Below are positions 10,935-33,912 of a stretch of 33,912 nucleotides of DNA, piece by piece. This stretch comes from Chrysochromulina tobinii. Its lineage: Eukaryota. The number at the start of each line of letters is the position of its first letter. Position 1 is the first letter of the stretch. The notes below the pieces were generated by a model. That model was not told where the DNA came from. It saw nothing but the letters and a program-made list of their open reading frames with translations, and did not search any database. The stretch lies in the NCBI GenBank assembly GCA_001275005.1, contig JWZX01002205.1:1-33912 (forward strand), given 5' to 3'. The translations under genes were made by a program, and so were the position numbers.

Positions 10935-13900
10935 TCAGATCACCTCCCCATCATCGTCGTCCTCATCGTCATCCGCCTCCTCGATGACGGGCGCCATCTC
11001 GCCTAGTGTCGTCTCGCCAGCGGGAAAGCCTTCGGCGAGCGCCTTCGCTGCCTTGGCCTTCTCAGCCTGAGCACCGATGCCAAGAGTGAGATACGGATCA
11101 GATCAATCATAATCAACCATACTCAACCACACTCAATCATAATCAACCAACCACATGCAATCACCTTAGCTGCCTTCTTGCGCTCAGCCTCGGCTTTGGC
11201 CGCCGCCTCCTCAGCCTCGGCAGCGGCGTCGGCGGCCTCTTGCTCGGCCACCCGTCGTTGATGCTCCTCCTGAAGCCGTGCGATGGCCTCAGCGACAAGC
11301 TCTGGTGGAGGTGGTCGCATGTCGGGCCGCGTCCTGTTGAGCACTTCGAGCGCGTCCTTCGCGGCCTTAGCGGCTGGCGCCACGCGACAGTTAGAGGCGA
11401 GGTGCGAGAGGGCCCCGAGCGCCAGGACAGCATGCTCAGGTACCTAATTAGGCAGGCACTCGATTTCGACGAGACGCACTCAGAGGTCATCATAGGTCAT
11501 CATAGGTCATCATAGGTCACCATAGGTCATCATAGGTCACCATAGGTCACCATAGGTCATCAGAGGTCATCAGAGGTCATCAGAGGTCATCATAGGTCAT
11601 CATAGGTCATCATAGGTCATCAGAGGCCATGCTTGGCACTCACTGTCCCCCCCTCGGGTCCGATCATCGCCTCGGTCGAGCTGGTGAGTAGGCGCTGGAG
11701 CGCCGCGGCCGCGCGATGGACTAGACCAGGCTCCTCGCAGATGAGGGCAATCTCGACGAGAGGCTCGAGCACACCAGCCTGCAGGAGGCTACCGCCGATC
11801 TCAGGCGACTGCCAGCCCAGCAGAGTTGCGATGCCGCCCACGGCGGCGATCTGCGACTTGACGTCATCCGAGCCGCAGAAGCCTACGAAGACCTTGGTGG
11901 CCGTCGAGGTAGGGCTGGTGAACTTTTGGGCGATCTCGTCGTGGGAGACAAGGTTGGACATGGCCTCAATCGCGGCGCGTTGCACGAGCGGGTTTTCGGA
12001 GGTGAGCGCCATCTCGAGCGCGCGCCACCCCTTCTCTTTGACGATCTTCTCTTTGAGATCGTCCACAGTCGCCAGATTGCATAGGCACATGCATGCCTCG
12101 AATGTGCTCAGCTCATGGCTCAGATCATCAATGAGCTTGATGATCGGCTTGACCATCGCCTCGGGCCCTGAACCGGTGCGACGCGGATAGAGCGCCGGGT
12201 TGATCGAGATGCCCACCTGTTCCGGGAACCAATCGAGATGTACTCACATGCACTCAGAAGTCATCATCGGAGGTCATCAGAGGTCATCGGAGGTCATCAG
12301 AGGTCTTCGGAGGTCATCAGAGGTCATCAGAGGCCATCAGAGGTCATCGGGAGAGAGGCCTACCTTCGCGAGCGCCCAAGCTGCCGCGCTGGCGGTCTTC
12401 GCGTCCTCACTCAAGGTGAGCCCACATAGCGCCTTGAAGCCGCCTTGCTGCACGATCTTGCCGCGCGCGTCCGGCTCGGTGGCCATGGCGAGCAGCACGT
12501 CAGCCGCGGGCCGGTGGAGGGATTCACTCTTCGACTGGGCGAGCGCCTCGGCGACGACGAGGACGGCATCGTCCATGACGAGCCTGTGGGCGAGCTTGGT
12601 GAGGATGGCCGGGTCGTCTTCCCTCTCGGAGGGCGGTGCGCCGAGTCCGCCGGCGGCCAGCTGCTTCATCTGCTCGATCTGCGCCTTGTCCATTTCGGCC
12701 TCAAGTCGCTTCTGGTCGTCCGACTTTTCGCGCGGCGACACGAGCCTGATGAGGGAGGCAATCAGCGGCCATCATCAGAGGTCATCATCAGTGGTCACCG
12801 GAGGCCGTCCTCAGTGGTCATCAGTGGTCCTTCAGAAGCACTCACCGTCGGAAGGAGGAGAGGAGAGAGAAGCCGAGAGAAGGCTCTGACGCGATGGACT
12901 GGGAGAGGGCGGTGAGGGAGCCAAATGAGGTGCCTTGCTCGACTAGGAACATCTTCGTGTCGGGTAAGATGGTGAGGTACATGAAAGCCTCGACTGCCCA
13001 TCGGTGCACCGAGGGCGCCACCTGATGAGGGACGCAATCAGAAGCGCTCAGGGCAACTCAATTAGAGGCCATCCGATGCGCTCAGAGGCCATCAGAAGCA
13101 ACTTTGAGGCACGTTGAGGCACGTTGATGCATGTTGAGGCACGTCGAGGCTCGTCGAGGCAATGACGCAAGTTGAGGCTATCCAATCAGACGCACTCAGA
13201 CGCACTCAGACGCACTCAGACGCACTCGGACGCGCTCACCTTGGCCTCGAGCAACCCGAGCGTCGCCGTGAGCAGCTTGCCCGTCGGGTTGATGGTCACT
13301 CGGTGGCTCTGGTGGATGAGCGCCGTCTTGGCCAGCGCGACGCACGCGCGGCAGCGTACGCGCGGCTTGGTCGATTTGAGCATCGTCTTCAAGTTCTTAA
13401 TGGGCTCTTCGCCAGCCTTGTCCCGGAATTGCGACTGGTCACTCGCAGCGTGCGCGTAGATCTCCGCGAGCGACTTTTGGAGGTCTTCATCGTCCAGATC
13501 GGCCGCTTCGGCCAGGGACCAAAAGATGGACTCTTGGCGCAGAAGATTCGCGCCGACCTCCTTGTTGACCTCGAGGACTGCAGTCACGCCATGCACGGCG
13601 GCCACGTGCTCGGCCCACTCGACGTGATCGGATCTGAGGATAGGAGAGAGTACGGACTCGATGAGGGAGGCAATCAGCATGCAATCAGTCATGGAGTACC
13701 CCCATGCTCCGAGTGGGCACGCACCTGATGAGGGAGGCAATCAGCATGCAATCAGTCATGGAGTACCCCCATGCTCCGAGTGGGCACGCACCTGATGAGG
13801 GAGGCAATCAGCATGCAATCAGTCATGGAGTACCCCTATGGGCACGCACCTGAGGATGGGCGAGAGTACGGACTCGCACACTTTCGAGAGAGCGGGGGTG

Positions 13901-15102
13901 TTCTCGCCCTCCTCCTTGCCATCCTTGGAGCCCCCAATCTTCGCCATGAGCACCGAGAGCACCCCGAGCGCCATCTTGTGCTGCTGTGACTCCTCGTCAC
14001 CGAGCAGCCAGATGAGCTCCTTGAAGACCTGTGGAAGCACCGCACTCGCCGCCTCCTTATCTTTATCCACGACTCGAATGAGGCCGTCCTGGCCGGCACG
14101 CGCGATGCTCGACTCGTGGTGGCGCAGAAAGGGCAGCAGACTCACCACAAGCATCCCCTGCGCATCCTGCGTGCCGAGCGCCGAGCGACAGCCGGCGGCA
14201 CTCGCAAGCAAGGAGAGGGAGCGACGCGCCGTCAGCAGCAGGTTCTTGACGCGATCGGGCTCTTTTGGCGGCGCCGGTGGGAGGCCGTGCGCGATGGCCG
14301 CGGCGGCCGCCTCGGCATCCGCTTCGCCCAGCTCCTTGCCCGCCTCGGCCGCGGCCGTCGCGACCCCGAGCAAGCGACCAATCGCGCTGCCTCCTTGGGC
14401 CTTCGTCATCGCTTTGAGCACCTCCGACTGTGCCTTGTCCTCGGGTCCAGACATGCGGTCGAGCGCCTCGATGGCGAGGCCCACGATCGGCATCGATATG
14501 TCCGCGGCCTTCGCTACCTCGCTCGGCAGCAGCTGCACGAGCACCTCGACCGCGCCCGCGTGCACCAGCTCTGCAGAGCGGCCGCCGTCCTCCGCGATAC
14601 GCGAGAGCTTGCCTGCAGCCTGCAACTGGTCGTCGCTGCCGGCTGCGGCCGTACGCAGCATCTCCACGGCCTGCGTGGGCGTCGACAGGTCGCTCTTCGC
14701 CGCGCGCTCCTCCATGGCGCGCTTCAGCTTCGCTGCGAGCTGGACTGCCTCCTTGTTCGTCGGCTCGAGCTGCATCAGCATGCGCACATCCTTGAAGGCG
14801 TCGGCGAGCTTGTTCATCGCCTCGCATGCCTGCGCGCGGCGGTAGTACGCCTTGCCGTAGCGTGGGTTGATCGCGAGCGCGGCCGTGCAGTCCTCCTTGC
14901 TCTTCTCTGGCTGCGACAGCTTGAGGTACACGAGCGCGCGGTTGGCGAGCAGTGCGGACGCATCGGCGTGCTTCTTCTCAGGATCCTTGTCCAGCGCCGC
15001 CGTGTAGCTCGTCAATGCTTCCGGGAGCTTTCCCGCCTTCAGCTGCTCGTTGCCCGCCGCTTTGAGCGACTCAATCATGGACGAGTCGTCGGGCACGAGC
15101 AT
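10935..15102 (-). CDS. UNC45: UNC-45-like TPR + ARM/UCS myosin chaperone; 7 exons: 13850..15102, 13240..13633, 12846..13021, 12364..12745, 11644..12216, 11165..11443, 10935..11066 (about 1062 aa)
   Basis: N-terminal 3xTPR (LKAAGNEQLK, NRALVYLKL, KAYYRRAQA). UCS-like motifs RWAVEAFMYLT, RGKIVQQGG, AAWALAK|VGISINP, FEACMCLCNLA and VQRAAIEAMSNL. All six GT-AG junctions join in frame. Start 15102 or 15078. Confidence 0.85.
11067..11164 (-). other. UNC-45 intron 6, 98 nt, degenerate 10-bp repeats
   Basis: AAG|GTGATTGCATG ... GCTCAG|GCT; phase 0; units such as GATTATGATT and GAGTATGGTT. Confidence 0.8.
11444..11643 (-). other. UNC-45 intron 5, 200 nt, with 15 x 10-bp array (11481..11630)
   Basis: ACA|GTGAGTGC ... 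TAATTAG|GTA; phase 0; plus-strand units CA(T/G)AGGTCA(T/C). Confidence 0.85.
12217..12363 (-). other. UNC-45 intron 4, 147 nt, 10-bp array
   Basis: AAG|GTAGGC ... GAACAG|GTG; phase 0; plus-strand units AGGTCATC(A/G)G. Confidence 0.85.
12746..12845 (-). other. UNC-45 intron 3, 100 nt
   Basis: ACG|GTGAGTGC ... CTGATTGCCTCCCTCATCAG|G; phase 2; degenerate 10-bp units. Confidence 0.85.
13022..13239 (-). other. UNC-45 intron 2, 218 nt, two different 10-bp arrays
   Basis: AAG|GTGAGC ... CTGATTGCGTCCCTCATCAG|GTG; phase 0; plus-strand arrays CGCACTCAGA and about ACGTTGAGGC. Confidence 0.85.
13634..13849 (-). other. UNC-45 intron 1, 216 nt: three stacked mini-intron units plus a 27-bp copy of the upstream exon end
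   Basis: CAG|GTGCGT at 13849; units 13792..13849, 13725..13791 and 13660..13724; acceptor ATCCTCAG|A at 13634; phase 2 (L-R-S-D-H-V). Confidence 0.85.
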
Positions 15103-15533
15103 CTCATGACGCGTCTCGCGCGTGAACAAGAAAATTTTCGTCGTTCACAGCGACGGCACAACGTCGAGCCGGCCACAACAGTCCTCAAAGTGGGGAGCAG
15201 CTGTCGACTGGCCGCAACATGTATACAAAACGCCCCGGCGGCTTGCAACGTTGCAACGCGGGGCATACCACACAGAACTCGAGAGGCTCGAGATACAGAC
15301 GCCCGTTTAAGTACACGCGGCTCGATGGTGCTCGCCTCGTCCCCACCCGCACTGTCACGCAACGCTCGCGCGGCAAGATGGCGAGAGGTTCCGCTGTGGT
15401 GCGCGTGTTCGCACGTGATCAGGTTCTCTCGCGCGCCACGCCGCAAGCAACGTCGCAGCCGTCTTCCGCGCAGTTCTGCTCACGCGTCACTCGTGACGAG
15501 ACCCAGCTGTCGGGGACTGCAGCGTGACGAACC

Positions 15534-16937
15534 TTAATCGGCGCGCGGGATGTCTCTCTCGAGCTGGAACTGCAGTGTGACGCCATCAGCCGAGTAGCGC
15601 GTCACGAGTATGAGCCATTCGCCCTCGGTCACCACAAAGGGCGCGGGCGCCATGCCCGCGGCGGCCTGCGAGAGGTCCTCGATGAGCTGCAGGCCCTGCC
15701 CCCACTGCATGTCGCGCGGGAAGTTATCGAGCGTCGCATCCGGATGGGTCGACATCGTCGCGACCAAGGGGCGTGGCGGCGCTGGTGGCAGCGAGCCGCC
15801 GCCAACGCCGCCGCCGCCGCTGCTGCTGCTGCTGATGCTGCTGTCTGCTCCGCTGGCGGCGCAGGCGTCGAGGGCGGCAGCGCCAGCCACCGGAGAAGAG
15901 TCATACACCTCCCACGAGGCAAGAATAGCATGCACCTTGCCCGATTTGGTCGCCTGCACGCGCTGGCGCATCTCTCCGCGCCACAAGCCAACTACGTCGT
16001 ACGCAAAGTCGACGTGTAGCACTGCCTGTCGTGCGGCGAGCTCGCGGTAGTGGCACGAGGAGAAGCGGAAGCCGTACTGCTTGGTGAAGACCATCGAGGT
16101 CGTGTCCTGAAGCGTGTTGAACCAGCCGAGATCGATACCCTCCCACGAGCGCACCTGATGAGGGAGGCAATCAGAGGTCATCAGAGGCCATCAGAGGTCA
16201 TCAGAGGCCATCAGAGGCCATCAGAGGCTATCAGAGGCTCTCACCGACGTGATCGACTCGATGTCCTGACTCTCGACGAGCGTGGCGAACTGGCAGCCGG
16301 CGCGCGGCACGACGGCGGCGTTGTGCGCGACGAGGCGCTGACGCGCGTCCATCACGTAGTGCAGCGCCGACTCACCCAGTAGCAGAGTGCCCAGGATCTC
16401 TGAGAGCAAGACAGTCGGCGTGCCGCCATATGCGGCGACCTCCTCCGGCTGACACTCGGTCGACATCTTGTTAATGATGTGTATGCGCGATTCGAAGCCG
16501 TTGCGCCGGATGATCTCGCGCGCCACGTTGGCCAGGTGGCGGTTCGCTTCGATGGCGATCACGGCCTTGGCACCGAGCGAGGCCGCGATGATCGAGAGCA
16601 GGCCCGAGCCCGCTCCGATCTCGAGCACGATCGACTCGGGCGTCACGACGCGGCGGAGGCAGTCGCGGTAGAACTCGTTGCGCGGATGGTCGTTCATCAT
16701 AGCGTAGTGCCAGTCGTTGGCCGCTTCGATGAGCTCATATGGCTTGTCGCGCAGCCGCTCGGGTATTAGGAATGCTTTGGGCACATTGGCCTCGAAGAGG
16801 TTCGTCTCCTTGCCTTCCGATCCGGGAGGCTTGTAGGGCATCCCCTCGTCGTACGGCTCGTCGCCGTCGTAGGCGTCATAGTCGTGCTCGTCATAGCCCT
16901 CCTGCTCGGCCAGCTCGTCGTCTGGCGCGTCACTCAT
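15534..16937 (-). CDS. Protein arginine methyltransferase-like (PRMT7/PRMT9-related), single domain; join(16245..16937,15534..16154)
   Basis: WHYAMMNDHPRNEFY, SAM motif I VLEIGAGSGLLS, double-E loop SEILGTLLLGE, beta-barrel ending RDMQWGQ. In-frame join ITS|VRSWEGIDL. Start 16937 or 16958. Confidence 0.82.
16155..16244 (-). other. PRMT intron, 90 nt, 7 x 10-bp array plus family 3' motif
   Basis: TCG|GTGAGA ... CTGATTGCCTCCCTCATCAG|GTG. It contains an in-frame TGA, so it must be spliced. Plus-strand units TCAGAGG(T/C)CA at 16171..16240. Confidence 0.88.
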
Positions 16938-17114
16938 GCCGACGGCCTCTGTGTTCATGCACGCTTTCGCAAAGACCTCGTCGCCAATGTGAAAAGTAAA
17001 CATAGGCTGTGTAAAGTCATCGGCAAGTCTTCCTGTTGTGAATAGAAGCAGGTGTTGGCGGCTGAAATGGGAGGGAAGTTGTGCGGACGCGCTGGTGCGG
17101 ACGCGCCCTCTTCC

Positions 17115-20917: not shown

Positions 20918-20983
<66 letters not shown>

Positions 20984-28301: not shown

Positions 28302-31300
28302 ATGAGGGTGGCACAACTCGTTCTGGTGCTCTTGCTTTGTCCCGGGGGTATGTCAACTACGCTCGATTCGGGACCCATTCTTATTCACCAAGTCGGCATG
28401 CATGCAGGTAATCAGGGCATGGCCACAGAACGGGCGGTGCGAGAGGCAAAGTTCCATAAGGCAGAGGCTGCAGCGGAAGATGCCTTTCTTTTCAAGCATC
28501 GCCTTCAATATCATGATGCTGTTTTGAACAAACTCACGTATTACGAGTACAGTGCACGTCGCCATCGTCACGTCCTCATGCTGAATGAGATGAACATTTC
28601 TTCGTGTGCACTGGAAGTTGTGGGTGACCAGATTCAGAAAGTTCATCTGACGTCTCGCGATCACGATGGGCTCAGAATGAACATGACGGCAGGTACGTTT
28701 CTCTCGCACCTTCGCTCTCGTGTTGATCGTTGTTTTCTCACGAACTGCGTTCGGTTATATGTCGCAGGGACGATATTTGCGGGGAAGATTGATTGCCAGG
28801 TCCAAGGAAGCCAACACTTGTATGGCAAGCCGCTACAAGAACAGGCGGTCACAGATCCTAATGTCACACTCGACGCGAACGGGTTCGAAGCCGTCCTGAT
28901 TGTCGCTACGAGACCGGTGGGTTTCAATGACTGTTTCGAACACGCGGAGATTGAGTACTTTCATGGCGAGCCGCAAAGTCTCTACGACGCACGTCTCGCA
29001 CGAAATTTGTCTCTTTCTTCCAAGGGATACAGCGTTCCTGATGAAGGCTTTGCCAAAACACATGAGGTGATTGCTGATTCTGTACGCCACAAGGGGAACG
29101 CAAGCGTTCAAGCGACTTGGACTTCTGTCGAAGACCTGGCATCGAATCGGACCGCACGCGCCTCTCGTCATCTTGCGCATTCATCCTGCCCTTTTGGTGC
29201 AGATCCCGATGATATTACAATCGACATCTTTGGGACTGATTGTACGGATCTGGCTCCTGGAGCCGCTATGGAAGGCACGGATTGCTTCTGGCATCCATCC
29301 CCGACCTCGGCTGTCCCCGTACTTAAAGTCGGCAACACGTACACCTTGCAATGGGCATCGACAACTGCGTCAAATCCAAATGTTGCCATTTATATTCAGA
29401 AACTTGGGGCACTCTGGGGAAGTACGAGCTGTGCGGACTTGTCACCACAATACTGGATTGACAACCAAGCTTACTCAGGTTCTACGTCAAGCTCCCCGAA
29501 CTCCTTCACATTTCAAATGCCTGATCTTCGGGCGCTTGCGTGTGCAAGCGACTTTCTTGGCGGCTTCCCGGTATTTCAGTTCAACATTTACACCGAAGGC
29601 GAATGCCATCGTGGTTCGTCGAGTGAGTTCAGGCTTTTGCAGAACGCCTCAAGAACTTCTCAAGCAATTTCTCTGAGCGTCCCTGCCCAATACGAGCTTG
29701 GTAGCGCAAGTGAAGGTCTTAGGGTCAAGTGTGCGAGTTGCTATGCCAGTGGCACAGGTAGCATTCATGTCCTACTTCGCACCTCGAGTTACAATCCCTT
29801 CGATGAGACATGGACGTGGGGCAACTTGAACCTGAGTGGCCATGTAGATGTCGAAGCACAAGCGTATGCAGCGGCATCGCGGACTCTTGGCCCTGTTCAG
29901 GTCCTCGGCCGTCTTTGTATTCCACCTCTCTGTGTTCCAGCCAGTGTTGCAAGCGTTGACGTCTTCTTTGGAGTCCTTGCGGATCTTTGGGTGGGCGCAG
30001 AAGCAACATTTGATGCAATCGCCACTCTCACGTATCAACGCACTTTGAGCTCCTCTGGAACGCTGGCACATCATACATGGCAGGGTTCGGTCCTACAAAC
30101 TTCCATAGACGGATTCGTTCCCAGCGCTCCGACAACAGCTTCTCCGGCAACACCGCAACTGCGGCTGAATATTGATGCAACTGCTCGTGTGCACGTGATC
30201 CCCCGATTCTACGCTGGTTTCTTCCTATCCGCCTCAACATGGACGCAAGCAGAGGCGTACATTAAAGTCGAGGTTCAAATGTCGCTATCAGCTCAGTTCA
30301 ACTTTCGAACTGCACTCGGGACAAGCAATTTCTTCCCAGCCAGAAACTTAGCCCTGGTCGCACCTCTCTCCCGCCTTCCGCCGATTCCCTATGTGCTGTG
30401 CGGCGAGACCTGCGACTACTCATCCGATGGCTCATGCGACGACGGCGGCCCCGGCGCGGAGTACTCGGATTGTGGGTACGGCAGCGACTGCACCGACTGC
30501 GGCCCGCTGCTTTCAGCGTGCACAGAGACTTGCAACTATCCATCCGATGGCTTTTGCGACGACGGCGGCCCCGGCGCGGAGTACTCGTCTTGTGGGTATG
30601 GCACTGACTGCACCGACTGCAGCCCGCGGCCCGCACGGCTTCCAGCAGCAGCGTGCACAGAGACCTGCAACTATCCATCCGATGGCTCATGCGACGACGG
30701 CGGCCCCGGCGCGGAGTACTCGGATTGTGGGTATGGCACTGACTGCACCGACTGCAGCCCGCGGCCCGCACGGCTTCCAGTGGCACCGCCCGCGACTGGC
30801 CTCTGCACAGAGACGTGCGGATCTTATGCCTCGGATGGCTCATGCGACGACGGCGGCCCCGGCGCGGAGTACTCGGATTGTGGGTACGGCACCGACTGCA
30901 CCGACTGCGGCCCCCGCACCTCGGGAAGCCCACCGGGAAGGCCCCCGCCGCCCTCTGCCCCTGCAACCGGGCCGCCGCAGACCTGCACCAATGCTTTGAC
31001 TGGTTGTTCATCAGCATGCTCAGGAAATCACGATACACATCTAGGATTCCGGCTCAGCACAACTGTCTATGGTGCATACAAGTTCTATCTTCAAACCTCA
31101 CTTCCTCTGTTTGGGGCTTTGAATTTCGGTTCCCCGTGGGAGATAAGTTTATCATCCTTGTCCTATGTTTACAACCGGTACATTGGCTCCTTCTGCTATT
31201 ACCTCTTCCCTCAATCGCTCCCACCACCGCCGCCATTGCCGCCGCCGCCGCCATCGCCCTCACCGACGCCTTTGCCGCCGCCGCCCTCGCCCTCGCCCCC

Positions 31301-33912
31301 GCCGCCCTCGCCCTCGCCCCCGCCGCCCTCGTCGCCTCCACTCCCGCCGCTCGCTCCGCTCCTGACTAATGGCGAGTGCGCCGTCATCTACGTGAAGAGC
31401 GACGAGCCAGACAACTTTGGGATCGTGCTCTTCGACTGGGTCTATGCTGGCCAGCAGATCTTCGTGACCGACAACAATTACTTGGGCGGCTGCACCGACA
31501 CGTGCAACTACGCCTCCGACGGCGACTGCGACGACGGCGGCCCCGGCTCGGAGTACGTCGCTCGACGCCAACTGGAGGAACGCCGACTTTTTTTCGGCGG
31601 CGGGGGGGCCACTGAATGCACTTACGGTACCGACTGCACCGACTGCGGGCCCCGCGTTGCGAGGTTCAGCGATACAGAGACCCATACGACGTACACGGCC
31701 CCCGTGGACCAGCCCCCCGGATCCGTCATCACCTTGAACTCCCCCGGCATGTCTGGCAGCATTCAGCTTCAGACCGACGGAGATGAGCTCATCGTCTACC
31801 GGGGCTCCCGGGCCAACCCGATTTTCCTGTGCGGCTTCTGCAACAGGCCGCTCTTCGCGAACTGCAATTTCAACTTAATTCCAGGCTACAACTCGAGCAT
31901 GCCCGCTGGCGTCTTCAACTACCTCCAGAATCCCGGCGGATCATCCCGGGCCGACCAGTGGATCTACGATACTCGCCCGCGTGGGACCCCGGGAATCCCA
32001 GTCTCGACTGGAACGCCACCTCCCGGCCTTGGCGCCCCCTTCGCCGGCTCGGCCGCTACGCTGCTGGCGGCCATCAACAACCGCTCGAATTGGTTTCAGA
32101 GCAACACGCTCTGGATCGCCGTTCAAGATGTCGTCCCTGCGGGTGGGTACCGCATCGGCAATCTCCCCCCGTCGCTCCCCCCCCCGAGTCCGAGCGCGCC
32201 GCGATCCCAATCGCCGCCGCCGCCACCCAGCCCCCCCAAGTCGCCGCCGCTGCCACCCGCCGCGCCGCCGCCACCGCCGCTGGGCCCGGGCGACTGTCTC
32301 TTCACCGCCCTCAAGACGGACGACCCGGACGACTTCGGGCTCGTCCTCTTCAAGACGCTCGGCTACACGGAGACGCTGTACGTGACCGACGACACGTGGC
32401 TCTCGCCGACCGGACCGTTTGCTCGGAACCCGCTTGAGCCCCACCTCATGTTCCGGCCCAGGATGAACCGCGACGTGCCCGCGGGCACGGTGCTCCGGAG
32501 GGCCAACTTCACCCTGACCAACGGTGCTCCAGGTAATTTCCAGCTCAGCGACGCCGGCGACCAGCTGCTCGCGTACCTCTGGCCAAACCACTTTAGCAAC
32601 ACCACCCAGCCCACCTTCCTATGCGGCATCGACAACACCGCCACGGGATGGTACGTCCCCTCGTCCACCTGCACCGAGACGTGCAACTGGGCCTCTGACG
32701 GCGAGTGCGACGACGGCGGCCCCGGCTCGGAGTTCAACGCTGGACGCCGACTGGAAGAACGCCGACTTTTTTTCGGGGGAGGGGGGGGAGGGGGGGATAA
32801 TGGATGCCCCCTCGGTTCCGACTGCAGCGACTGCGGCCCGCGCGTGAACCCTCTGTGCCCTCTTAATGCTGACGGGCTGCCAAGCTGCGGAGAGAAATCG
32901 TATTTGCCCTCAAGCCTCGTGACGGACTACAGCGCGCTGAGCTTTGGGCACGACGACAACTTGAGGTACGTGGGCGGCTTCCAGAACGTCACCAACGCCG
33001 GCACCGTCGCGGCTCTGCGGGCGTCCATCGTCCGGAGAGCAAACTGGGTGTTCAACAACGTGATCACCGGCCCATTCCAACAGATAACCTCTTTTGAAGT
33101 CTACCCCGACCCGCCCTCCCCGCCGCCTTCTCCGCCCTCGCCGCTGCCCCGACCCCCCCCCCCATGTCGCCGCCGCGGCCACCCGCCGCGCCGCCGCCAC
33201 CGCCGCTGGGCCCGGGCGACTGTCTCTTCACCGCCCTCAAGACGGACGACCCGGACGACTTCGGGCTGGTCCTCTTCAAGACGCTCGGCTACACGGAGAC
33301 GCTGTACGTGACCGACGACACGTGGCTCTCGCCGACCGGACCGTTTGCTCGGAACCCGCTTGAGCCCCACCTCATGTTCCGGCCCAGGATCAACGGCAAC
33401 GGCCTCGACGTGCCCGCGGGCACGGTGCTCCGGAGGGCCAACTTCACCCTGGCCAACGGTGCTCCGGGCAATTTCCAGGCCAGCGACGTTGGCGACCAGC
33501 TGCTCGCGTACCTCTGGCCAAACCACTTTAGCAACACCACCCAGCCCACCTTCCTGTGCGGCATCGACAACACCGCCACGGGATGGTTCGTCCCCTCGTC
33601 CACCTGCACCGAGACGTGCAACTATGCCTCCGACGGCGACTGCGACGACGGCGGCCCCGGCTCGGATTCCCCTTTGTGGAAAGTTATAGCGGGTCTATTT
33701 GGGGGTGATTGCCCCCTCGGTTCCGACTGCACCGACTGCGGCCCGCGCGTGAACCCTCTATGCCCTCTTGTTGGCGGGGTGGCAAGCTGCGGTGAGAAAT
33801 CGTATTTGCCCTCAAGCCTCGTGCCGGACTACAGCGCGCTGAGCTTTGGGCACGACGACAACTTGAGGTACGTGGGCGGCTTCCAGAACGTCACCAACGC
33901 CGGCACCGTCGC
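28302..33912 (+). CDS. Giant modular secreted/surface protein (Cys-rich DDGGPG modules, Ser-Pro linkers, repeated beta-domain); 3'-partial, with an apparent 1-nt frameshift near 33153..33163
   Basis: The ORF is open from 27831; a signal-peptide-like MRVAQLVLVLLLCPGG starts at 28302. It contains 7 CxxTC-x4/5-DGxCDDGGPG...DCxDC modules and SPPPP tracts. The repeated domain continues in another frame after an 11-C run. Confidence 0.8.
30398..30918 (+). repeat. Four near-identical Cys-rich coding modules (about 120-150 bp period)
   Basis: Repeated TGCGACGACGGCGGCCCCGGCGCGGAGTACTCG...GACTGCACCGACTGC. Confidence 0.92.
32252..33912 (+). repeat. Large tandem duplication, period about 926 bp (second copy truncated by the window end)
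   Basis: TGGGCCCGGGCGACTGTCTCTTCACC starts at both 32281 and 33207, with near-identity thereafter. Confidence 0.92.

What the first reader, a model, noticed from the sequence alone, without database searches (positions are those of the whole stretch)
13660..13849. Head-to-tail concatemer of complete mini-introns (zero-length exons, AG|GT ratchet points)
Seen: GTGCGTGCCC...CTGATTGCCTCCCTCATCAG occurs as 58-nt and 67-nt complete GT-AG units plus a third 65-nt copy lacking only the final AG. The unit boundaries coincide exactly with splice sites. Stopping at either internal acceptor would retain 158 or 91 nt and shift the frame. Known: AG|GT ratchet points support recursive splicing, normally in very long animal introns. 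Inference: splice-site-exact concatemers point to an RNA-level origin (repeated reverse splicing, or rolling-circle RT of a circular intron) and predict recursive splicing in a 216-nt intron. DNA slippage on the CTCAGGT/ATCAGGT microhomology is the alternative.
Basis: partly seen in the sequence, partly recalled or inferred. Interest (0 to 1): 0.8.

Follow-up and report, generated by a model that had tools for sequence, protein, structure and literature searches.

The report
Stacked intron copied from another gene
A spliced 216-base intron in an algal myosin-chaperone gene is a head-to-tail stack of three mini-introns whose front ends are leftover coding sequence of an unrelated gene; it was likely pasted in from that gene by an intron-making process that duplicates its landing site and has left over a hundred similar stacks, and whether it is cut out piece by piece is untested.

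Summary
The stack is real. Minus strand 13849-13634 is a 216-nt intron of a UNC-45-like gene, spliced exactly in RNA contigs of three studies. The units did not arise here. A 95%-identical array of at least six units lies in another gene (L109), and each unit's first 25 nt copy that gene's conserved codons VRAHSEHM (UDP-glucose-dehydrogenase family). Stacks are common: 112 distinct ones among 132 loci, 55 with exact CATCAG|GT joints. They follow from how introns arise in this lineage: a branch-point-repeat filler between 13-41-nt duplicates of exon, so that exchange between the duplicates repeats a whole intron. Repeated reverse splicing and local slippage are disfavoured. An RNA template for the transfer remains open. 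Recursive splicing is plausible but not shown, and probably not obligatory: 32 of 121 clusters keep a perfect internal acceptor with no donor after it. Depth favours three units in two DNA runs and fewer in one.

The parts
13634..13849 (-). 216-nt GT-AG intron (first intron of a UNC-45-like gene), phase 2
   Evidence: RNA contigs of three studies join 13850^13633; 7 of 9 homologs project to exactly one residue (R) between the exons and the other 2 also read ...LSPILR once
13792..13849 (-). Unit U1, 58 nt: complete GT...CATCAG, with a 9-nt deletion in the head relative to U2
13725..13791 (-). Unit U2, 67 nt: ~25-nt head copied from coding sequence of the L109 gene + branch-point-like repeats + family acceptor
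13660..13724 (-). Unit U3, 65 nt, identical to U2 up to ...CCTCATC; base 13660 is shared with the exon duplicate
13634..13660 (-). X': right-hand target duplicate, a 27-nt copy of the upstream exon end (2 third-position mismatches); supplies the acceptor that is used
13850..13876 (-). X: left-hand copy, the last 27 nt of exon 1 (codons ESVLSPIL + AG)
13850..15102 (-). Exon 1 of the UNC-45-like gene (TPR domain)
   Evidence: Pfam TPR_1; homologs with TPR + UNC45-central + Arm; RNA cover of 13850-14300
13240..13633 (-). Exon 2 (UNC45-central domain)
   Evidence: PF11701 E 1.7e-08; 85% identical to P0002 426-556; RNA cover
13022..13239 (-). Next intron (218 nt), same acceptor family, followed by exonic GTG
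   Evidence: RNA joint, ends
12746..12845 (-). Third intron (100 nt), same acceptor family
   Evidence: RNA joint, ends

Best explanation
The 216-nt intron is a spliced stack of three mini-intron units that was likely copied from an intron array in another gene (L109, UDP-glucose-dehydrogenase family) and pasted into conserved UNC-45 codons at an inferred staggered cut, leaving a 27-nt duplicate of the exon end. Step 1 (architecture shown, process inferred): introns in this lineage arise as a filler of branch-point-like 10-11-nt repeats, often ending CTGATTGCCTCCCTCATCAG, between 13-41-nt duplicates of exon. At L109 the left duplicate (GTGCGC..., codons VRAHSEHM) gave the GT donor. Step 2 (inferred): slippage or unequal exchange between the 25-nt duplicates repeated the whole intron at L109, so every joint is AG|GT by construction. 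Step 3 (source shown, chemistry inferred): at least two units were copied into UNC-45. They bring their own GT donor, and the right-hand exon duplicate supplies the AG. I put target-primed reverse transcription of the donor intron's RNA at about 55% and DNA-templated break repair at about 45%. Step 4 (inferred): one further local duplication made U2 = U3. Splicing: the end product is shown. Piecewise removal (58, 67, then 91 nt) is possible, at about 45%, but probably optional.
For: Source: window 13659-13840 matches L109 at 95% over 182 nt; this was the only match over 150 nt among the 132 loci. The unit head equals the 25 nt after L109's last AG. That stretch is conserved protein: R2, S5 and H7 are invariant in an alignment with 8 of the 18 hits, and P0049 and P0052 carry UDPG_MGDP_dh domains. 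P0049 has no hit in the window. L109-type letters occur in the same runs as the window sequence. Target duplication; homologs have VLSPILR once. General architecture: 19 of 47 isolated acceptors have an upstream copy of their own downstream sequence, against 0 of 47 shuffled pairs and 2 of 47 for exon+30 (at least 2 of the 19 are whole-unit repeats). In 58 of 107 stacks the unit head matches what follows the array (0 of 111 shuffled). 73 candidate flanking repeats of 13-41 nt; 15 rows take the acceptor from the right copy, as here (some rows are one locus). One shared 5' head occurs at 12 sites, 6 followed by a copy of their upstream end. Filled versus empty site in the donor gene itself: P0001 reads L109 407-607, about 12 codons of filler, then re-enters at ~576. 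DNA-level growth: L109 has a 134-nt higher-order dimer with alternate joints dead, GG|CT. 38 of 118 units are at least 85% identical to the stretch before them.
Against: The window's three units share a change (CATATGGG to CATRGGGG) absent from the five full L109 units aligned, and lack L109's alternating variants. The direct template was therefore an older state, another allele, an unseen part of the array or a third locus, and a single-unit circular template fits this too. Only 683 nt of L109 is held; its upstream end is unseen. RNA contigs of X12 and X14 do not cover L109's exon, so splicing there is unverified. 80 of 118 units are under 85% identical to their upstream neighbour (ungapped), so many stacks are not simple duplicates and may be repeat insertions. 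38 of the 73 candidate insertions have no GT/GC-AG placement; the set is noisy. No element-encoded enzyme was looked for or found, and RNA versus DNA template is not resolved.
Confidence: 0.68

Rival explanations
1. Rolling-circle reverse transcription: one 67-nt unit excised from the L109 intron circularised, and an RT primed at the nicked UNC-45 site went round it about three times.
For: The three window units are homogeneous at sites where L109 units alternate. The insert starts exactly at a unit's GT and ends within 2 nt of a unit's AG, which selection did not require because X' supplies the acceptor. L109-type array contigs are in RNA runs at depth 4-15 while L109's exon is not covered (weak, since the array is multi-copy).
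Against: The AG|GT joint already exists in the donor DNA, so no circle is needed. U1 and U2/U3 differ by a substitution and a 9-nt deletion, which fits stepwise DNA duplication. No circle was observed; contigs cannot show one.
Confidence: 0.13
2. Local origin: a single intron already in UNC-45 was duplicated in place by slippage on CTCAG/ATCAG microhomology, and the exon end was duplicated separately.
For: A 4-nt TCAG microhomology exists at the left junction. U2 = U3 does point to one local duplication.
Against: The downstream exon starts ATCC, not GT. The same joint and unit exist at L109, where a 25-nt homology explains them. It needs several independent jumps, whereas 'own donor + right-hand exon duplicate' is a common single-step form here. 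The head is foreign coding sequence in any case.
Confidence: 0.08
3. Repeated reverse splicing of the same intron into the same exon junction, fixed by cDNA recombination.
For: Exact joints; the intron is in the sense orientation; reverse splicing has been proposed for Micromonas introners, which include nested or merged copies (PMC3879977, passages).
Against: Reverse splicing leaves no target duplication, and here there is a 27-nt one. U3 lacks its AG. 13-41-nt duplications are the rule in this lineage.
Confidence: 0.03
4. The third unit is assembly over-looping of a two-unit, 149-nt intron, or copy number differs between cultures. This does not exclude the best explanation.
For: U2 and U3 are identical, so 31-mers cannot count them. 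In X6 the joint contig has depth 43.9 against 57-88 for the flanks.
Against: In X5 and X3 it has 2.1 and 2.2 times the depth of a single-copy contig.
Confidence: 0.15

Closest known systems
Introners / introner-like elements that recruit a splice site from the target duplication (Symbiodinium, Polarella glacialis, Aureococcus; a marine Chrysochromulina MAG)
   Same: New introns in coding sequence with one splice site carried and the other recruited from the duplicated target, or both from it (10.1101/2020.10.14.339549, parts 1-2 of 4 read; PMC9860276 and PMC12130899, passages).
   Different: The duplications in the passages read are 3-9 nt, with a characteristic length per class, often with terminal inverted repeats. 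Here they are 13-41 nt and variable, there are no terminal inverted repeats, only the acceptor end or a short head is shared, the body is simple repeats, and units stack and capture exon sequence.
Intron gain by repair of staggered double-strand breaks (Daphnia pulex)
   Same: A direct repeat of the adjacent exon end at the far end of the new intron; repeated rounds build internal repeats (PMC4202315, passages).
   Different: The repeats there are 4-12 bp and the paper says the source of most new introns remains unknown. Here they are 13-41 nt, the filler is a recurring family, and the source gene was traced.
Tandem genomic duplication of AGGT-bearing exon segments
   Same: Duplicated exon sequence supplies the splice sites (PMC3443670, passages); 12 of 73 candidate rows have both sites inside the duplicate.
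   Different: A foreign branch-point filler lies between the copies, and here the donor is imported.
Recursive splicing at zero-length exons (animal ratchet points; S. pombe SPNCRNA.445, a 336-nt intron)
   Same: A 3' splice site directly followed by a 5' splice site inside an intron (10.1101/226894, passages), so it is not limited to long animal introns.
   Different: Those sites were shown by spliceosome profiling and are conserved between species. These are young duplicates, have no intermediates shown and show no significant selection signal.
Fungal stwintrons and nested or merged Micromonas introners
   Same: Complex introns made of several intron units that can be removed in consecutive steps, or in one (PMC7138796, PMC3879977; passages).
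   Different: Stwintrons nest one intron inside a splice signal of another; these units abut head to tail.

Membership tests
Introner / ILE | Many introns at unrelated sites share sequence | tested here: met
   269 distinct sites with the exact 13-nt acceptor in 0.85 Mb (loci chosen for stacks); one 5' head at 12 sites; window unit 95% like L109
Introner / ILE | End-to-end similarity of family members | tested here: not met
   Most members share only the 3' ~20 nt or a short head; the heads are locus-specific exon copies
Introner / ILE | Splice site recruited from a target duplication; inserted at a site empty in relatives | tested here: met
   filled/empty pair
TIR DNA transposon (MITE-type introner) | Terminal inverted repeats and a fixed short duplication | tested here: not met
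   Duplications 13-41 nt; no significant fold of unit or intron (z 0.03-0.95)
Non-LTR retroposition (target-primed reverse transcription) | Variable-length duplication with one defined and one truncated end | tested here: met
   selection for spliceable inserts can produce the same picture
Non-LTR retroposition (target-primed reverse transcription) | An autonomous RT/endonuclease partner sharing the 3' end; exact ends also in unselected (antisense, intergenic) copies | not testable with these tools
   No whole genome is held; orientation test confounded (GT-AG placement 25 vs 8 of 73 on the two strands)
Recursive splicing (zero-length exon) | 3' splice site abutting a 5' splice site | tested here: met
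Recursive splicing (zero-length exon) | Intermediates or lariats at the internal sites | tested here: inconclusive
   Only contigs at depth ~10 were available; none of the pieces shown joins 13850 to 13791 or 13724, but the tables were cut
Recursive splicing (zero-length exon) | Selection keeps AG and GT paired | tested here: inconclusive
   In 50 in-phase stacks: AG lost with GT kept at 5 loci, GT lost with AG kept at 2, both lost at 1. The wider table (55/60 vs 34/52, p 8e-4) is confounded by out-of-phase repeats
Stwintron | Internal intron interrupts the donor, branch point or acceptor of an external intron | tested here: not met
   Units abut; no signal is interrupted

The most novel reading that the evidence does not exclude
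This lineage makes new introns by target-primed reverse transcription of its own excised intron RNAs, including pieces released by recursive splicing. That would write 13-41-nt duplications, carry captured exon heads from gene to gene, and leave hundreds of natural AG|GT ratchet stacks that are removed unit by unit. The UNC-45 intron would be a traced donor-to-recipient case of this cycle.
Probability: 0.25. Interest if true: 0.88.

Novelty: new variant of a known kind. Interest (0 to 1): 0.6.

Why it matters
Where new spliceosomal introns come from is a long-standing question, and the source sequence of a gained intron is rarely found. Here the intron carries a fossil of another gene's codons, so donor, recipient and direction can be read from the sequence. 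The lineage also shows an intron-making process with long, variable target duplications, unlike the short fixed ones of the introners in the papers read. Exact AG|GT stacks arise from it as a by-product. More than a hundred such stacks, with intact, half-dead and dead joints, in organisms that appear to be in culture, make it directly testable whether a short-intron spliceosome removes a stack piecewise and whether intron RNA serves as the insertion template.

Tried and rejected
No whole genome is held, and L109's contig could not be reached by handle, so the left end of the donor array is unseen. Pattern scans of viral contigs and prokaryote genomes found nothing. The one metagenome scan covered 10 of 64 parts and did not return this locus. 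No Rfam match in 11000-17000. No special RNA fold hides the internal sites (z 0.95 for the region, 0.03-0.34 for units), and the 5-bp hairpin of the terminal 20-mer is not significant (z -0.19). Use of the CATCGAG at 13657 as acceptor was rejected: it keeps 23 nt with a stop after 24 codons, and RNA uses 13634. The idea that L109's head is merely a partial last repeat was rejected because it is conserved protein. The first protein search of that piece found only itself, and Pfam gave nothing for the short piece. The test for selection on paired AG/GT was inconclusive. L109's exon has no cover in two RNA runs; this is not taken as evidence. An estimate of 200-300 distinct stack loci from redundancy is rough and mixes strains. 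Ten paper searches were run; those aimed at this system showed no description of it. Most subscription papers are not searched, and the supplementary introner tables of PMC9860276 and PMC12130899, which were not read, may list the family.

Full report
Observation. On the minus strand, AG|GT occurs at 13850|13849, 13792|13791 and 13725|13724. The pieces are U1 (58 nt), U2 (67 nt) and a 91-nt remainder whose first 65 nt equal U2 up to CCTCATC. TRF gives period 67, 2.7 copies, 99%. The host gene is UNC-45-like: TPR in exon 1, UNC45-central in exon 2, and 9 of 10 hits carry PF11701. RNA contigs from three studies join 13850 to 13633 with no other letters. Seven of nine homologs project to a single R between the exons, and the other two also read LSPILR once. 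The 216-nt intron is therefore real and sits in conserved codons. One homolog's cluster member is a single 3126-nt reading frame on a scaffold (P0025), which fits a gain in this lineage. Stopping at an internal acceptor keeps 158 or 91 nt and meets a stop after 13 codons.

The last 27 nt of the intron (13660-13634) copy the last 27 nt of exon 1 (13876-13850), with two third-position mismatches; chance expectation is 0 in 100 shuffles. The structure is X [U1 U2 U3] X' exon 2: an insertion flanked by a target duplication, with the donor brought by the insert and the acceptor supplied by the right-hand copy.

Copy number. 31-mers cannot count identical units. The contig specific to the U2/U3 joint has 2.1 and 2.2 times the depth of a single-copy contig in runs X5 and X3 (74.4/35.4, 82.1/37.0; other contigs there 40-53), but 43.9 against 57-88 in X6. 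Three units are favoured. Fewer units in some culture, or over-looping, is not excluded. These runs may be the window's source.

The unit comes from another gene. One metagenome scan for two acceptor motifs 39-99 nt apart returned 138 stretches (132 loci, 815,810 bases) from 10 of 64 parts, with about 840 estimated in all. L109 holds at least six 67-nt units, 95% identical to the window array over 182 nt. Its last AG is followed by 25 nt that match the unit head and open a frame VRAHSEHMVAIREP. A search of cluster representatives gave 18 hits. In an alignment with eight of them R2, S5 and H7 of the head are invariant, and two longer hits carry UDP-glucose/GDP-mannose dehydrogenase domains. That gene is not in the window, but L109-type letters are in the same runs. 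The 5' ends of the window's mini-introns are thus fossil codons of another gene, which gives the direction L109-type locus to UNC-45 (inference from sequence). The window units share a change not seen in the five full L109 units aligned and lack L109's alternating variants, so the direct template was not the visible part of today's array.

Why joints are splice-site exact. Among 47 isolated acceptors, 34 are followed by GT and 19 have their own downstream 13-60 nt copied upstream (0 of 47 shuffled pairs, 2 of 47 for exon+30; at least two of the 19 are whole-unit repeats). An independent search found 73 candidate repeats of 13-41 nt around a filler of TGATTGC/TGATGAC-type repeats. Of these, 8 take the donor from the left copy, 15 rows the acceptor from the right copy as here, 12 both, and 38 neither; the set is noisy and some rows are one locus. 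A filled and an empty state of one site are seen in the donor gene itself. When the left copy starts with GT and the filler ends in AG, any exchange between the two copies repeats a whole intron and makes AG|GT by construction. Of 112 distinct stacks, 55 have CATCAG|GT at the first internal joint, and in 58 of 107 the head matches what follows the array (0 of 111 shuffled). L109's 134-nt higher-order dimer with alternate dead joints is what DNA-level expansion leaves (established knowledge of tandem arrays). Against a single simple route, 80 of 118 units are under 85% identical to the stretch before them, so repeated insertion at the same site probably also occurs.

RNA or DNA template. Variable duplications with one defined end are the mark of target-primed reverse transcription (recalled). 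The window insert ends within 2 nt of a unit's AG although X' made that unnecessary. Donor-type array contigs are present in RNA runs (weak). However, staggered-break repair also leaves such repeats (4-12 bp in Daphnia; PMC4202315, passages), and selection alone would keep only spliceable inserts. Neighbouring introns share tails more often than distant ones (7 of 75 same-strand pairs at least 80% alike vs 129 of 5563, rank test p 0.005; opposite strand 4 of 33, p 0.24), which fits a local template of either kind. I put it at 55:45 for RNA. Reverse splicing (PMC3879977, PMC3443670; passages) would not leave X'.

Recursive splicing. For: each unit has the family acceptor and the commonest donor hexamer among GT units (GTGCGT, 8 of 76, tied with GTGCTC), and 58 and 67 nt fall in the 57-163 nt range of single duplication-flanked introns. 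It is known for a 336-nt yeast intron (10.1101/226894, passages). Against necessity: 32 of 121 clusters keep an intact 18-nt internal acceptor with no usable GT/GC unit after it (a few have a shifted donor, and none is RNA-checked), which suggests that perfect acceptors can be skipped. Selection on paired sites is not significant (5 vs 2 loci of 50). No intermediate appeared among the pieces shown, but contigs at depth 10 and cut tables cannot exclude one. About 45%.

Comparison and novelty. It works like an introner that recruits a splice site from its target duplication (10.1101/2020.10.14.339549, parts 1-2 of 4; PMC9860276, PMC12130899, PMC11282704, passages), but fails end-to-end similarity and terminal inverted repeats, and its duplications are far longer. 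It is not a stwintron (PMC7138796, passages). Searches aimed at this system found no description; supplements were not read. That note reported the duplication-flanked family. New here are the traced donor gene, the right-copy acceptor form and the stacks. Verdict: a real feature, one of many, a new variant of a known kind; interest 0.6.

Noticed in passing
L109 576-616 vs proteins P0001, P0039-P0045: Presence/absence of insertions in the donor gene across assemblies: one state has a ~30-nt duplication at AAG|GTG around ~12 codons of filler; another diverges after 616 into a tail-like stretch; L109 is empty.
   Followed up: partly
L004, L012, L020, L026, L040, L068, L072, L074, L110: A shared intron 5' head GTGCGATCTCCCTT at 12 distinct sites, 6 followed by a copy of their own upstream exon end: a donor-side counterpart of the acceptor family.
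   Followed up: partly
L021:1420+ and L034:2086+; L094 and L123: Further cross-locus shared unit heads (18 and 15 nt), possible additional donor-recipient pairs.
   Followed up: partly
L013, L014, L016, L027: Another recurring intron 3' motif, TGCATGCAAGTGCTCACCACGGCGC, at unrelated loci.
   Followed up: no
L043, L045, L001, L025: Runs of the 20-22-nt acceptor itself, several with intact AG and no donor.
   Followed up: partly
L109:51-385: Higher-order 134-nt dimer; in alternate joints both AG and GT are lost together (GG|CT).
   Followed up: yes
window 16155-16244 (-), 11480-11630, 12264-12350, 573-656: Other likely introns of the same family built from 10-11-nt repeats; the acceptors at 16155 and 561 are followed by exonic GTG.
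   Followed up: partly
window 30394-30936 and 31490-33912: Coding-like 135-nt repeats and 245-264-nt duplicated blocks about 930 nt apart.
   Followed up: no
window 20918-20982: Perfect (CAG)21 run.
   Followed up: no
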